Shown piece after piece: positions 19,801 through 60,700 of a DNA stretch of 64,000 bases. The number at the start of each line of letters is the position of its first letter. Positions within the stretch are counted from its first letter, which is position 1. The DNA lies in assembly GCA_020137815.1 (NCBI GenBank), contig CM035359.1, positions 2,604,001-2,668,000 of the forward strand, given 5' to 3'. The notes under the pieces were generated by a model. That model searched no databases. It was not told the origin of the DNA and saw nothing but the letters and a program-made list of their open reading frames with translations. The position numbers and the translations under genes are program-made. This stretch comes from Hormiphora californensis. Taxonomy: Eukaryota > Animalia > Ctenophora.

Positions 19801-22800
19801 CCGCCTGCATCTTTGTTCTCATTATGAATTATGATGATAACTCGTAGCTGTCAACTGATTTCAATTTCTGAAGCCCCTTTGTAGTCAGAAAGTCGCTAAA
19901 TAACCTTGTTTCTAGCCTATCCTGAGGCCTCAGAGTTATATTTACAGATATCACTCTCAGTAAAGTGAAATATCGCTCTTTCTCTCTGCTACCTTTCCAA
20001 GTCTCCCGGCTGCCCTCTCCTCCCAGGCCGCTCTGTATCTCTGTGCTGTAGCAGGCACTTCCTTTTCCTATTCATTTGTAGCACACCACTTTATCAGTAT
20101 CATGTTACCGTGTCGTATATAATAGAGCTCTTGCGTTGATTCCCTTTGACATTGCCTTTCCAACGTCCTGTCGCTGCATTTCTCCTCGTTCTAAATCATT
20201 TCTCTCTCTCTCGTTCTAAATAATTTCTCTCTCTCTCATTCTAAATCATTTCTCTCTCATTCTCGCCACACCTCACCTCTTTCTCACTCACTCTATCCCT
20301 GCTCTGTGCATATGACATTTATTAGCCCTGTGTGTGAGCATGTGTGTGTGTGTGTATGCTTCCCTTTTGTCTCCCTTCATCTCACTCACACCTCTCTCTC
20401 TCCCCCTACATCCCTCTCTCTCTCCATCTCCCTCTCTCACATCTCACTTTCATTCTTAAATCCCCACACCCAGTGACCGTTGCAGTCTGCTTGTCCTTTC
20501 TTCATTGCAATTGAATTGTACACCATCCTTTCTTCATTGCAATTTAATTGTACAGTTGCCAATATCAAAACCCGTTATAATGCTAATTCATTTTTAATTA
20601 ATTTTTAAATTGTATTCCTTTGTTCCCCAGCTGAAGTAAGCTGTTTGCCATGATTGGGTTTAGGATACGGTATAACTCCGCTACTTCGTCCTACCATAGA
20701 CTACCTCTAAAACCGGTAAACCTTTCCTTTTAACCCTAAACCGGTAAACATTACATTAACCTGGGTATTTAGGCCGCGTTTATGAGGTTTTTACATGATG
20801 TTGACATTTTCAATTCTCAATTGAAGCCCTGTCAATTGAGTATATCACACACATCCTATATGGGCGTGTCATGTGTTGACCAATGTCACCTACTACTGAC
20901 CAGAGAGAGAGAGAGATTGGGAGGGAGAGAGAGAGAGAGAGATTAATTAGAATATTAAACAAACATTCACAAGTAACAGTGTCTACCATTCATTAGACCT
21001 CATGTGATACACTGTGTGAGATTTAGTAACTAACAAGGAAGACAAACCCAGACAAAATTATCTTGAATTGTTGTTACTATTTGTTGCACGTAAACGGGGC
21101 AAAAAGGGAGGGGTAAGGGGGTCCAATATACTACCAAGTACATTTTCTAATACTCCTCTACTCTATCCTGTTCTAACACTCCCCTAATCTACCCTGTTCT
21201 AACACTCCTCTTTATCAATTATAATCTATCATGTTCTAACACTCCTCTTTATAATCTATCATGTTCTAACACTCCTCTTTATAATCTATCATGTTCTAAC
21301 ACTCCTCTTTATAATCTATCATGTTCTAACACTCCTCTTTATATGAGGCATAAACTCTGGCCACTGGCGCGTTATTTCAGATAACTTTCTCCCAGCGCGC
21401 CGCTGGGAGAAGTTAGCTGGAGTTTATCCGCCACTGGCGGATAAACTGGTTTAAATCACGACGACGATCCCGAGGCGGAGCCGAGGGAGAGGCGGAGGGG
21501 TTTAAACCTATAACGTGCCAGTGGTCAGAGTTTATGGGTTATATACCCTGCTTTAGTTGTTTATTTCAAGTATTACACACCAACAAGAGAGAGAACACTA
21601 ATCAAAACACACAAAGACAACTGAGAAATAGTTAAAAACACGTCACAATTGAGTGTACACTGTTTGGTAACAGTTACTAAGCAGTTGCTAAGGAAAGAGA
21701 GTGCAAGAAATAGCCTGATAAGGGGCATGTCACAAATAACACAGAGAAAGAGATAGTGAGACAAAAGGGGAGATAAAGAGAGAGTAATTGACGGAATGTG
21801 TCCTTTCTTTCTCTCCAATGTAGTGTGTAAGTGTTGCACATAGTGTTCCCTCTGTATTTTAGTAAGAACTGATCATTTACACACACTTTGAATGTTCAAA
21901 ATAAATAACCTGCCAGTGGGAAATAATCTGCCGCTGGACTGGCTGTTTATTGAGAGCGCGCTAGTGGGACTGGCGGGTTATTTAAGTTAGCAGGGTATAT
22001 AATCTATCATATTCTAACACTCCTCTAATCTATCATATTCTAACACTCCTCTAATCTATCCTGTTCTAACACTCCTCTAATCTATCATGTTCTAACACTC
22101 CTCTTTATAATCTATCATGTTCTAACACTCCTCTTTATAATCTATCATGTTCTAACACTCCTCTTTATAATCTATCATGTTCTAACACTCCTCTTTATAA
22201 TCTATCATGTTCTAACACTCCTCTTTATAATCTATCATGTTCTAACACTCCTCTTTATAATCTATCATGTTCTAACACTCCTCTTTATAATCTATCATGT
22301 TCTAACACTCCTCTTTATAATCTATCATGTTCTAACACTCCTCTTTATAATCTATCATGTTCTAACACTCCTCTTTATAATCTATCATGTTCTAACACTC
22401 CTCTTTATAATCTATCATGTTCTAACACTCCTCTTTATAATCTATCATGTTCTAACACTCCTCTCCTTCAGATAAAAGAGTTCGAGGAGGATATGGAGAG
22501 GAGAGGCAAGGTACTGAAGGACCAGCTGGCTGAGTTAGTTGAACTACTAGCAGCTCTTGAAATGGACCGGAACTGTCTGATAGAGGAGGGTCTAACTGGT
22601 GATGATGTGGATACCATGTTGCTGTCTGATGAGAGCATCCAGAGGAGGAGTGATATGATCAACCAGTACAGGTAAGGAGGGGTGATATGATCAACACGTA
22701 TAGGTAAGGAGGGGTGATATGATCAACACGTATAGGTAAGGAGGGGTGATATGATCAACCAGTACAGGTAAGGAGACGTGATATGATCAACACGTATAGG

Positions 22801-57700: not shown

Positions 57701-60700
57701 GGATTAGTTCAATTATTGGGAGAACGATTCAATTAGTGAAGGTACACTGAAGATACACTGAAGATACAGGATGAGTGCACTGCACTCAGTGCAGTCTTAA
57801 TGAAGAAGGGGGTATGCGAGACCAGCTGATAGTAAAATCACGTCGCTCGTCAAGGCGGTGAAAATTCGGAACTCAGTACAAAACTCAGGTGCAGGGAACA
57901 AAACCAAGGCCAAGGGAGGAGCATACTCAATGTTAGCGGAGGAACTCTGACCTACAAAACACAGGATAGGGGTTTGAAGGCCAGAGGGGATTCAGAGATC
58001 GGGAAGCAGGGGAGAGGTTTGGGTCGGGCGGTGGGTGGAAGAGGGTGGGCCAGCATACTCAATGTTAGGAGGAATTCTGACTCTGCATTGTACGTTACAC
58101 CGCCATATTGATTTGAACTGCTACAGGTATACGTTCTGCCGTCTGTACCCTCCACATTCTTTATTGTCAATACCTAGTGTAGCACACATGGTGTTTATTG
58201 TCAATACCTTTAAATACACATGTGGTGTTTATTGTCAATACCTAGTAGCACACATGGAATCAACTACCGAAAGCCTCCTTCCTCCAATTTTCAACTTCCT
58301 CCCTCCCACTTCATCCAAAAACTATCCCAAGTGCGAAATAGTTCCAAACCTCCCCTAGCCCTCAACCCCCTTCCCCCTGTGTCAAATTACTCCCCCATCC
58401 CAGGCCCCTCACCCAATATACCTCCCTTAGTATGTCTGCCCCACATCCCCCTCCTCCTTTCATGCCTTCTCTAATTAGCCCCTCGCCCCCTTGCCACCCA
58501 GGCCACATTCACCACAAACCCCACCCCCTGCCCCTACCTCCTTTAGTATGTCTGGGTCTGTCACACCTGTCACCTTCTCAACACACTACCCCCCGCCTTT
58601 ACCACCCACCCTCACCACTGCACCCACCCCACCACCCGCCCTACCCCCTCACCCCTCCTATACCTCCTTCAGTATGTCTGGGTCTGTCACTCCTGTTACT
58701 TTCTCAACACTGTATTTATTGGTCTGACTGGTGTCTACAGACCAAACCAAACTATCCTTGGTGATAGGGTACGCTTCAGCAGTACATGTGATTTTGGAGT
58801 TCAGTCCCGCTACTGCGTAACTGTCACCCGACATAGACACTTTGATTGGGTAGTCTAGGGGCGGTGGCTGGTTACTTATCAATATCATGGTTACACACGG
58901 TTACACGTGGTTACACACGGTTACACGTGTCTAGTATTATAATAGGGGCGGTGGATTGGATATTTTGTTGGATGTGATGGATAGAAAACAGCCCTAACCA
59001 GCACTTTGCAAAAACCACAACTATACTCACCAACTCTGAACTCAACGGTAGTCTCCGCACTATTTGTTTTGCCTTGGTACGTATTCTCACAACTGCACTT
59101 ATACTCTGCAATATCCCCAGAAGTAGCGCTGGCAAAGTTGATCACACTCGTCAACACAAAGTCAGGATCATCTATAACAGGGGGGGGGGGGGTGAAATTA
59201 TAGATTCAGCAAGACCGGTACCATGTAGCATTAATATGATTTTAGTTAGAGTTTCTACTTTGATATTGAGTCAAACAGTGATATGGGGGCCAACTAACCA
59301 GTCACCCGGTCTCCCCAGTTAACGGGTAACCCCAATTAACCAGATAATTAGAGCTGCAATTATAGTAATTACTTACAGACGGCTGTGTTGGTGATTGTCC
59401 TTGTATCAGTCGCTGTCACCTTCACACCATCCTTTGTCCAACTCATTTCTGGAAAAAGAAGGGTTCATTTCTGGTAAAAGATCAGTGGTTTAGAGAAAAT
59501 ATTCTGGGTGGAGGGGGGTGGTGTTGTGGATTGGGATACTGTGAGCTGGTTAGCTATAACTGGATATATCAGTTTCCAACACAGATGACGTCACGTTATG
59601 ACGTCACGTTAAGACGTCACGTTAAGACGTCACACAATACGTACCTTCAGGTAGAGGGACACCTTCACAGGAGCAGGTGAGGGCAGCGGACTTTCCAACT
59701 TGGGTCTCCACGAAGGATGTAGTTCTGCTCACCTTTACTGCCGTATCTGCAGGGCATTATTACAGGGCATATTATAGGACAGGGATGGGGGGGTGGGGAG
59801 GGGGGTACACGATAGTATACATGGTGGATAGATGCTGCAGAACATTAGTGGGGTAGCACGTGGGGGTATGGACCAACAGCTTACAAGTTTTAATGATGAC
59901 TTTGTCGTCCTCAAACTGCGCTATCTTGTTGAGATAGTTGGTGGATTCGCACACGTAGTTCTAGGGAGAGATGAGTGGTGAATGCAAGGTTACCATGGTT
60001 ACACAGAGTCTCACCTGGTTACCATGGTTACACCTGAACACCTCGAGTCTCACCTGTTACACCGATTCTCACCTGGTTACCATAGTTACACCGAGTCTCA
60101 CCTGGTTACCATGGTTACACCGAGTCTCACCTGGTTACCATGGTTACACCGAGTCTCACCTGGTTACCATGGTTACACCGAGTCTCACCTGGTTACCATG
60201 GTTACACCGAGTCTCACCTGGTTACCATGGTCACACTGAGTCTCACCTTGTTACCATGGTTACACCTCGAGTCTCACCTGGTTACCACGGCTACACCGAG
60301 TCTCACTTGGTTATCATGGTTACACCGAGTCTCACCTGGTTACCATGGTTACACCGAGTCTTACCTGATTGCCATGGTTACACCTCGAGTCTCACCTGGT
60401 TACCATGGTTACACCGAGTCTCACCTGGTTACCATGGTTACACTTCGAGTCTCACCTGGTTACCATAGTTACACCTCGAGTCTCACCTGGTTACCAAGGT
60501 TACACCTCGAGTCTCACCTAGTTACCATGGTCACACCGAGTCTCACCTGGTTACCATGGTCACACCGAGTCTCACCTGGTTACCATGGTTACACTGCGTC
60601 TCACCTGGTCATCGTCTTGTGATGCTATAGCGAGTGTGCTGATAAGATTGTAATCCGTGGTTGATGTCGTTGTAACCGTGTAACCTTCATCCGCACTGGT

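What the first reader, a model, noticed from the sequence alone, without database searches (positions are those of the whole stretch)
21145..60610. Window-wide pattern: tandem repeats are built from the genes' own splice signals
Seen: in all three long genes most intronic minisatellites and short duplications start or end exactly at an exon boundary and copy the splice signal in the sense of the host gene. Branch-point (CTAAC plus pyrimidine) arrays: 21145-22466, 44565-45351, 53335-53690. Donor arrays: 22647-22800, 39858-39985, 46624-46680, 51860-52125, 57920-58080, 58420-58700, 59985-60610. Acceptor duplications: 23290-23346, 24970-25085, 33885-33925, 40190-40230, 55005-55080, 56105-56180, 58165-58255. 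The units are unrelated in sequence, so this is not one transposon family. Inference: either a duplication process is nucleated at splice junctions, or the arrays are tolerated or selected as splicing modulators, or as raw material for intron growth and gain.
Basis: partly seen in the sequence, partly recalled or inferred. Interest (0 to 1): 0.8.

Follow-up and report, generated by a model that had tools for sequence, protein, structure and literature searches.

The report
Splice-junction "mirage" repeats in comb jelly
In three genes of a comb jelly, short stretches that straddle exon-intron borders are copied into the neighbouring intron about 1.5 to 2 times as often as random placement gives; this repeat type is already known from lancelets and humans, and here it is likely a tolerated by-product of frequent local DNA duplication whose extra splice signals would mostly be ignored.

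Summary
All 17 listed loci are real. They lie in three ctenophore genes (PRC1-like, CFAP44, an Ig-domain membrane protein; 72 introns). A junction-blind catalogue gives 69 intronic repeats. Of these, 22 overlap a GT/AG (14-16 expected given intron length) and 32 lie within 6 nt of a donor or 12 nt of an acceptor (18-20 expected). That is a 1.35-2-fold excess, not "most", and the units straddle borders rather than end at them. Interior repeats carry no sense-strand splice motifs. Two short duplications are spanned by contigs of a second sample, and at two loci another haplotype lacks a copy. RNA contigs from other animals use the exon-proximal site at the three sites covered. Of 63 decoys, 57 would break the protein. 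This is the amphioxus "mirage" / human F7-VNTR class, and the scan already found it on other pieces of this genome. Best reading: random local duplications that survive when the exon-proximal site still wins, and persist longer because one copy is protected. New leads: copied donors are often followed by sense-strand G-runs (post hoc), and one 51-nt array is an in-frame copy of an apparently conserved alternative acceptor.

The parts
13867..26072 (+). Host gene 1: PRC1/MAP65-ASE1-like, 14 modelled exons, 5' end not found
   Evidence: Open over 741 codons; exon 25372-25521 hits PF03999 at E 2.4e-6
29943..50956 (+). Host gene 2: CFAP44, 37 modelled exons
   Evidence: 2,106 aa plus stop; 1,445 identical of 2,130 columns with Mnemiopsis P0002; RNA contigs bridge introns 11, 20 and 21
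51753..61042 (-). Host gene 3: Ig-domain single-pass membrane protein, 24 modelled exons; 5' end not found, last exon tentative
   Evidence: 931 aa plus stop; Ig_3 at E 1.6e-6; RNA joints 56115-56310 and 56497-56954
21141..21343 (+). Upstream half of the 26-30-nt branch-point/pyrimidine array, separated from the rest by an insertion
21344..21997 (.). 654-nt non-array insertion; its first ~200 nt are bounded by 36-nt inverted repeats (MITE-like)
21998..22464 (+). 30-nt x16 array holding CTAAC and the pyrimidine tract, ending 7 nt before the end of PRC1 intron 4; no AG copied
22643..22800 (+). Donor mirage, 32 nt x4.9, with 29 nt of exon; 3 intact decoy donors, all with a stop
23258..23353 (+). 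Acceptor copies at -35 (scores higher than the real site) and -82
24967..25085 (+). Spaced acceptor copy at -97 with 13 nt of exon
25509..25571 (+).
33880..33925 (+). Acceptor duplication at -26
39856..39982 (+). Donor mirage, 49 nt x2.6, with 14 nt of exon, G-run rich
   Evidence: RNA contig X8 matches up to 39868 and its remaining 57 letters are not listed as laid on the array
40193..40230 (+). Acceptor duplication at -27 (weakest call; decoy in frame and stop-free)
44031..44058 (+).
44574..45349 (+). 51-nt x15 array spanning the upstream alternative acceptor (exon start 45340, adds SSSQ); the 5 nearest decoys are in frame and stop-free
46624..46679 (+). Donor duplication at +30
48629..48676 (+). 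8-nt array starting at the donor; GT-AATTA repeated without the preceding AG-G context
51859..52132 (-). Donor mirage, 37-57-nt units, 4 decoys, G-run rich
53333..53692 (-). 11-13-nt branch-point/pyrimidine array running up to the acceptor
54999..55081 (-). Acceptor copies at -33 and -64; real exon start 55013
   Evidence: spanned by a contig of sample S2 (record 9)
56107..56178 (-). Acceptor duplication at -44; decoy scores higher than the real site; polymorphic
   Evidence: X1 joint 56131-56180 lacks it, X5 record 12 spans it, RNA X7 splices at 56115
57920..58081 (-). Spaced donor copy at +132
58153..58257 (-). Acceptor mirage, 34 nt x2.9, with 14 nt of exon; real exon start 58173
58419..58703 (-). 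Spaced donor copies at +126 (47 nt of exon, 4 of 4 differences synonymous) and +242; polymorphic
   Evidence: X1 joint 58500-58639 lacks the middle copy
59443..59481 (-).
59988..60613 (-). Donor mirage, 29 nt x21, 19 decoy donors listed, none in frame and stop-free

Best explanation
These are 'mirage' repeats: short local duplications that straddle exon-intron borders and leave extra splice signals in the intron, likely made by ordinary, position-blind slippage or unequal exchange and likely tolerated because the spliceosome would keep using the copy nearest the exon. Shown: the copies exist, they segregate as alleles, they are 1.35-2-fold over-represented at junctions, and nearly all decoys would wreck the protein. 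Inferred step 1: local duplication is frequent everywhere in non-coding DNA (1.4-1.6 non-simple events per kb in unannotated DNA and intron interiors), and introns are short (median 191 nt), so 14-16 of 69 events would hit a junction anyway. Inferred step 2: duplications inside exons, or ones that shift splicing, are purged. Inferred step 3: a junction pair persists longer, up to about 2-fold, because one copy cannot be deleted and changes more slowly. Inferred step 4: the first donor and last acceptor win, through cross-exon recognition or first-come donor scanning, possibly helped by G-runs lying between the real and decoy donors.
For: Copies are real: 15 of 72 donors and 14 of 72 acceptors versus about 0.7 expected each. 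Excess is modest: 22 of 69 vs 14.3-16.4; strong non-simple set 16 of 38 vs 8.6-9.4, p 0.002-0.006. A placement weight of 2 is not rejected, P 0.09-0.56. Background duplication is as common in unannotated DNA (18 in 12.9 kb) as in intron interiors (30 in about 19.2 kb), and rare in exons (2 in 11.3 kb, with a stricter pipeline variant). The 33 interior events show no strand bias: CTAAY 5 sense vs 5 antisense, GTRAG 5 vs 4. 57 of 63 decoys frameshift or stop. Polymorphism: X1 joints 56131-56180 and 58500-58639; contigs of sample S2 span the 55005-55090 and 56107-56178 duplications. RNA contigs use the exon-proximal site at 56115, 43598 and, by where the match ends, 39869. Exonic parts of copies differ at 11 synonymous and 10 non-synonymous sites: more synonymous than decay of the copy alone (p 0.002-0.016) and compatible with one constrained lineage (p 0.10-0.28). 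Precedent: PMC3087553 and PMC3902484 (passages), PMC1557585 (abstract and Discussion).
Against: The best-fitting weights for the strong and near-junction sets are 3-4, above the 2-fold survivorship ceiling, and a weight of 1.5 is rejected for them (P about 0.02). Selection against harmful duplications should lower the junction count, not raise it. The survivorship factor is my arithmetic and was not simulated or measured. Several upstream decoy acceptors score as high as or higher than the real site (16.5 vs 12.8; 11.9 vs 8.1), so tolerance needs a mechanism that is untested in ctenophores. The RNA contigs come from seawater samples at depth 2-11, from animals whose intron alleles are unknown, and the other X1 haplotype lacks the 56107-56178 copy; they do not prove that a decoy is skipped. 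One window, 72 introns.
Confidence: 0.68

Rival explanations
1. Duplications are mutationally nucleated at splice junctions, for example by transcription- or splicing-coupled nicks, R-loops on G-rich non-template DNA, or nucleosome-linker breaks at exon edges, so the excess is a formation bias.
For: Best-fit weight is 3-4 for the strong and near-junction sets. Copied donors have G-rich sense strands: a G-run at +7..+40 in 7 of 11 (curated) or 6 of 11 (blind) vs 11-12 of 61, p 0.004-0.023, with no C-run link. 28 of 72 introns have a junction-touching event.
Against: A weight of 2 is not rejected. Donors alone are not significantly enriched in the full set (p 0.06-0.18). Exon overhangs vary from 0 to 47 nt, with no fixed cut position. 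Interior repeats are not G/C-run rich (3 and 4 of 26 vs 95 and 107 of 494). The G-run test was post hoc and drops to p 0.13 in the blind set with the narrower window.
Confidence: 0.17
2. The arrays are selected splicing modulators: decoys titrate U1/U2 or supply alternative in-frame sites.
For: The CFAP44 intron 23 array is a 51-nt, 17-codon, stop-free unit. It copies an acceptor whose four extra residues (SSSQ) are present in the Mnemiopsis protein and absent in the Bolinopsis isoform aligned.
Against: Only 6 of 63 decoys are in frame and stop-free, 5 of them at that one locus. Copies are absent from other haplotypes. Real sites with and without copies have similar strength (p 0.20 and 0.87). 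No RNA contig using a decoy appears in the listed rows (tables truncated).
Confidence: 0.07
3. The copies are transposon footprints or target-site duplications of elements that insert at splice sites.
For: MITE-like elements are abundant in these introns, and an earlier AI note (e1-10649239) reports a donor-duplicating MITE elsewhere in this genome.
Against: Junction units are 8-51 nt or more, unrelated to one another, up to 21 copies head to tail, with no element between them. Read by eye, the three ~109-nt MITE copies here sit about 40, 178 and 225 nt from donors without copying them.
Confidence: 0.05
4. Assembly or sequencing artefact.
For: The window has low-quality homopolymer-rich stretches (about 2600-5300 and 62700-64000).
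Against: Copies are diverged from each other, one array is split by an insertion, and contigs from a second sample and study span two duplications.
Confidence: 0.03

Closest known systems
Amphioxus 'mirage' minisatellites (Adh3, globins BflGb6/BflGb9, troponin C, PGBD5). Seen: passages of PMC3087553 and PMC3902484; the original Adh3 paper (PMC117041) is not held and is known to me only through these.
   Same: Tandem copies spanning exon-intron borders at both 5' and 3' ends; many copies keep GT/AG; unit number differs between haplotypes; regular splicing apparently unaffected; generating mechanism unclear.
   Different: Here in a ctenophore, at high density (27 non-simple events at 144 junctions), with many two-copy or spaced duplications, branch-point-only arrays, and a quantitative null. 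Somatic instability was not tested.
Human F7 intron 7 37-bp VNTR (PMC1557585; abstract and Discussion read)
   Same: First monomer spans the exon-intron junction; downstream pseudo-donors are intact; only the most upstream donor is used.
   Different: A single human locus with experimental proof. Here there are many loci, acceptors as well as donors, and non-use of decoys is inferred from reading frames plus limited RNA.
Intron gain by tandem duplication of proto-splice sites (Rogers model, as cited in PMC3087553)
   Same: Local duplication multiplies splice signals.
   Different: All copies here lie in existing introns and no intron built from an exonic repeat was found. Intron positions were not compared with orthologous genomes.
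Silencers between competing splice sites inhibit the intron-proximal site (PMC2095810, passages)
   Same: Would explain why G-run-containing donor copies, and acceptor copies with intervening intron sequence, are tolerated.
   Different: Shown in human reporter genes, mainly for 3' sites; untested in ctenophores.

Membership tests
Mirage minisatellite | Tandem repeat whose unit spans an exon-intron boundary | tested here: met
   e.g. 22643-22800, 39856-39982, 58153-58257, 59988-60613, 44574-45349. The branch-point-only arrays at 21998-22464 and 53333-53692 stop short of the exon and fit only loosely.
Mirage minisatellite | Both 5' and 3' boundaries affected | tested here: met
   15 of 72 donors and 14 of 72 acceptors
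Mirage minisatellite | Many copies keep GT/AG as potential cryptic sites | tested here: met
   63 decoys listed at 20 junctions of 21 examined
Mirage minisatellite | Copy number differs between haplotypes | tested here: met
   X1 joints 56131-56180 and 58500-58639; letters between the joint sides are not known
Mirage minisatellite | Regular splicing is unaffected | tested here: inconclusive
   RNA contigs use exon-proximal sites at 3 loci but come from other animals at low depth
Mirage minisatellite | Somatic length instability (reported for Adh3) | not testable with these tools
   Only contigs were available, no single-molecule reads
F7-type VNTR | Only the most upstream donor is used although the pseudo-sites are functional | tested here: inconclusive
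   Frame logic and one RNA contig at 39869; function of the pseudo-sites is untested
Intron gain by tandem duplication | New intron composed of, or flanked by, the duplicated exonic segment | tested here: not met
   All events lie in or at existing modelled introns; the 2 exon-internal duplications are in frame and unspliced in the models
Transposon target-site duplication | Short fixed-length direct repeat flanking an element | tested here: not met
   Variable units of 8-51 nt or more, up to 21 copies, no intervening element

The most novel reading that the evidence does not exclude
Comb-jelly introns are a natural mutagenesis screen of splice-site choice. Junction duplications arise preferentially at exon edges, survive only where exon-side recognition and intervening G-run silencers keep decoys silent (exon definition despite ~190-nt introns in an early-branching animal), and occasionally, as in CFAP44 intron 23, become an in-frame 17-residue protein-length dial.
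Probability: 0.2. Interest if true: 0.68.

Novelty: new member of a known kind. Interest (0 to 1): 0.32.

Why it matters
The class is known, but the mechanism that generates mirages is described as unclear (PMC3087553, passages), and my searches found no genome-wide test or ctenophore report (open-access library only). With about one junction in five carrying a copy, and alleles with and without copies segregating, this genome would let one test directly (a) formation bias versus survivorship and (b) whether an early-branching animal with short introns picks splice sites across the exon or across the intron. In practice, decoy junctions with exon sequence will mislead gene predictors; my own first models took decoy acceptors at two exons.

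Tried and rejected
No whole genome is held, so no genome-wide test. No listed run is on record as RNA; X7 and X8 are guessed RNA from seawater. X8 laid nothing on 53700-59980, and X5 has no cover at 57900-58529; neither is evidence. The second lay was swamped by high-copy MITE contigs, so joints at the CFAP44 duplications were not displayed. The loose catalogue (score 11) includes chance calls: 3-11 per shuffle against 42 observed in introns of 800 nt or less, 0-2 of them at junctions and 0-2 at the strong threshold. The zeros came from a stricter pipeline variant. One strong event (57633-57832) is a merge of hits and its junction overlap is doubtful. In one search I dropped one event tied to the unconfirmed micro-exon (68 of 69 used). 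General G-quadruplex seeding was not supported, because interior repeats are not G/C-run rich. 'Copies archive other alleles' (earlier AI notes): 11 of 21 differences are synonymous, not significantly above the two-lineage expectation (p 0.10-0.28), so it is not needed here and not excluded. Weak splice sites attracting copies: no difference. PMC2812944 and 10.1101/700575: outline and abstract only, not used. PMC117041 is not held. Supplements were not read; those of PMC3087553 (mirage alignments) could bear on the unit comparison.
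Full report
Setting. No genome is held for this window. I read the whole window and built exon models by coordinates. A PRC1-like gene (+, 13867-26072) is open over 741 codons (PF03999). CFAP44 (+, 29943-50956) gives 2,106 aa. 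An Ig-domain membrane protein (-, 61042-51753) gives 931 aa (Ig_3). One CFAP44 exon is 88% identical to Mnemiopsis leidyi and 83% to Bolinopsis microptera proteins, and the whole model has 1,445 identities in 2,130 columns with the Mnemiopsis protein, so the organism is a ctenophore. The genus named in earlier AI notes was not tested by me. There are 72 GT-AG introns, 31,162 nt in all, median 191 nt. CTAAY lies 10-45 nt before the intron end in 26 of 72 introns on the sense strand and 2 of 72 on the antisense strand. RNA-like contigs bridge several modelled introns.

Are the copies real? Each 28-nt junction window was aligned to its own intron and, as a null that keeps splice-signal composition, to the other 71. 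At p<0.01, 15 of 72 donors and 14 of 72 acceptors have a copy in their own intron; about 0.7 each is expected. Two corrections: 21145-22466 is two arrays split by 654 nt, partly MITE-like, and the 51-nt array spans an acceptor (below).

Is it more than short introns would give? A junction-blind scan found 69 intronic repeat events. Sliding each event within its own intron, 22 of 69 overlap GT/AG against 14.3-16.4 expected (p 0.008-0.051). 32 of 69 lie within 6 nt of a donor or 12 nt of an acceptor against 18.4-20.2 (p 1e-4 or lower). In the strong, non-simple set, 16 of 38 overlap against 8.6-9.4 (p 0.002-0.006). Acceptors carry the signal (20 vs 10.1-10.9 within 12 nt); donors alone are not significant in the full set (p 0.06-0.18). 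A global per-base null gives 22 vs 13.0 and 32 vs 16.0. In introns of 800 nt or less, 29 of 42 events touch a junction. Chance calls number 3-11 per shuffle in those introns, rarely lie at junctions (0-2) and are 0-2 at the strong threshold, so they dilute rather than create the excess. As a weight on junction-touching placements the best fit is 2-4: a weight of 2 is not rejected (P 0.09-0.56), while 1.5 is rejected for two of three sets (68 of 69 events used). Interior events (33) show no sense-strand bias for CTAAY (5 vs 5) or GTRAG (5 vs 4). Non-simple duplications are about as dense in unannotated DNA (18 in 12.9 kb) as in intron interiors (30 in about 19.2 kb).

Anatomy. Units straddle the border and carry up to 47 nt of exon. 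The reading frame forces the copy nearest the exon in every frame-breaking case; my first models failed until the innermost acceptors 58173, 56115 and 55013 were used. Of 63 decoys at the 21 junctions examined, 57 would frameshift or add a stop, and many score as well as the real site; some upstream acceptors score higher. The exception is CFAP44 intron 23. The Mnemiopsis protein has four extra residues (SSSQ) at this junction and the aligned Bolinopsis isoform does not, which matches two acceptors 12 nt apart (45340 and 45352). The 51-nt unit copies the upstream one, and the five nearest copies are in frame and stop-free, 17 residues each. Whether they are read is unknown.

Independent data. 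Eight runs from three studies hold part of 45352-55300. X1 has contigs identical to the window and may be its source, so it is not independent. It also carries a second haplotype with joints 56131-56180 and 58500-58639 that remove one acceptor copy and one donor copy; the letters between the sides are not known. X5, from another sample and study, spans the 55005-55090 and 56107-56178 duplications in single contigs (records 9 and 12). The guessed-RNA run X7 splices 56115-56310, the exon-proximal acceptor. X8 joins 42163 to 43596, and its match ends at 39868, the first donor copy. These animals' intron alleles are unknown, depth is 2-11, and contigs drop rare forms, so skipping of decoys is supported but not shown. 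High indel heterozygosity in ctenophore introns is reported for Hormiphora (PMC8527503, passages).

Mechanism. Best reading (0.68): position-blind local duplication, purging in exons, tolerance when the exon-proximal site still wins, and longer survival of pairs in which one copy is the protected working junction. The last step is inference: divergence accrues at less than twice the neutral rate and only one copy can be deleted, which gives up to about 2-fold. In line with one constrained lineage, exonic parts of copies differ at 11 synonymous and 10 non-synonymous sites; this is above copy-only decay (p 0.002-0.016) and not above the two-lineage expectation (p 0.10-0.28). Against it, the fitted weight of 3-4 in the stronger sets leaves room for a true formation bias (0.17). 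A post hoc lead: copied donors are followed by sense-strand G-runs (7 of 11 curated or 6 of 11 blind vs 11-12 of 61; p 0.004 and 0.023; p 0.13 for the blind set in a narrower window), with no C-run link and no G/C-run excess in interior repeats. This fits silencers between competing sites disabling the intron-proximal one (PMC2095810, passages), or R-loop-type mutagenesis (my inference); the data cannot separate the two.

Known systems. Tandem repeats spanning exon-intron borders are termed 'mirages' in amphioxus Adh3 and globins. They occur at both 5' and 3' borders, differ in copy number between haplotypes, do not disturb splicing, and have an unclear origin (PMC3087553 passages; PMC3902484 passages). 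Human F7 intron 7 has a 37-bp VNTR whose first unit spans the junction, and only the most upstream donor is used (PMC1557585 abstract and Discussion). The membership features that can be tested here are met, except splicing neutrality, which is inconclusive. Five searches listed no ctenophore or genome-wide account in the open library. Earlier AI notes report the same pattern on other pieces of this genome and in several other animals; they gave me the term 'mirage', which I then checked in the papers.

Verdict. This is a new member of a known kind, already seen by this scan. Interest 0.32, mainly for its density and testability.

Noticed in passing
window 54424-54598 (also 55295-55413, 55612-55755, 55921-56007): A second X1 haplotype keeps the exons (about 5% different, several variants shared with RNA run X7) but skips or replaces intron interiors, e.g. 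173 nt replaced by 47 letters, so allelic introns may be unalignable. Some short-sided joints may come from repeats.
   Followed up: partly
window 45340-45351: Two acceptors 12 nt apart; the longer form's SSSQ is in the Mnemiopsis protein and missing from the Bolinopsis isoform aligned, which suggests a conserved alternative 3' splice site.
   Followed up: partly
window 40098-40130: Modelled 33-nt CFAP44 micro-exon with good splice signals that is absent from both relatives' proteins aligned; it is either alternative, lineage-specific or not real.
   Followed up: partly
window 35517-38515: A 3-kb element with perfect 27-nt terminal inverted repeats fills CFAP44 intron 10 and carries a 63-nt satellite; a related 31-nt unit recurs at 57444-57532, where X5 has an extra copy.
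   Followed up: partly
window ~34501-34609, 42391-42499, ~45578-45686: Three copies of a ~109-nt very high-copy MITE-like element in CFAP44 introns (depth; the other two read by eye).
   Followed up: no
window 55362-55445, 58888-58929, 59988-60613, ~18494, ~26086: A recurring GGTTACCAT-type 9-nt motif, high-copy by contig depth at 55380-55589, also forms part of the 29-nt donor array unit, so that unit is not wholly locus-specific.
   Followed up: no
window 26681-28012 (-): Intronless 443-aa MFS transporter gene between PRC1 and CFAP44.
   Followed up: partly
window ~28290-29300 and ~31990-33555: Two large near-perfect palindromic (foldback-like) elements, read by eye, with mirrored internal repeats.
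   Followed up: no
window 35111-35269, 47193-47318, 43796-43893: Microsatellites also abut splice sites: CT repeat up to an acceptor, CAGA repeat directly after a donor, and an ATTA-rich repeat filling a 107-nt intron.
   Followed up: partly
window 54791 and 39586: Other alleles carry 18-nt and 14-nt intronic insertions absent from the window; the first resembles the adjacent branch-point region.
   Followed up: no
window ~2600-5300 and ~62700-64000: Homopolymer-rich, apparently uncorrected low-quality sequence.
   Followed up: no
window ~17820-17972: Possible extra exon or nested gene inside PRC1 intron 4 (open stretch ending in a GTGAG donor, read by eye); if real it would alter that intron's model.
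   Followed up: no
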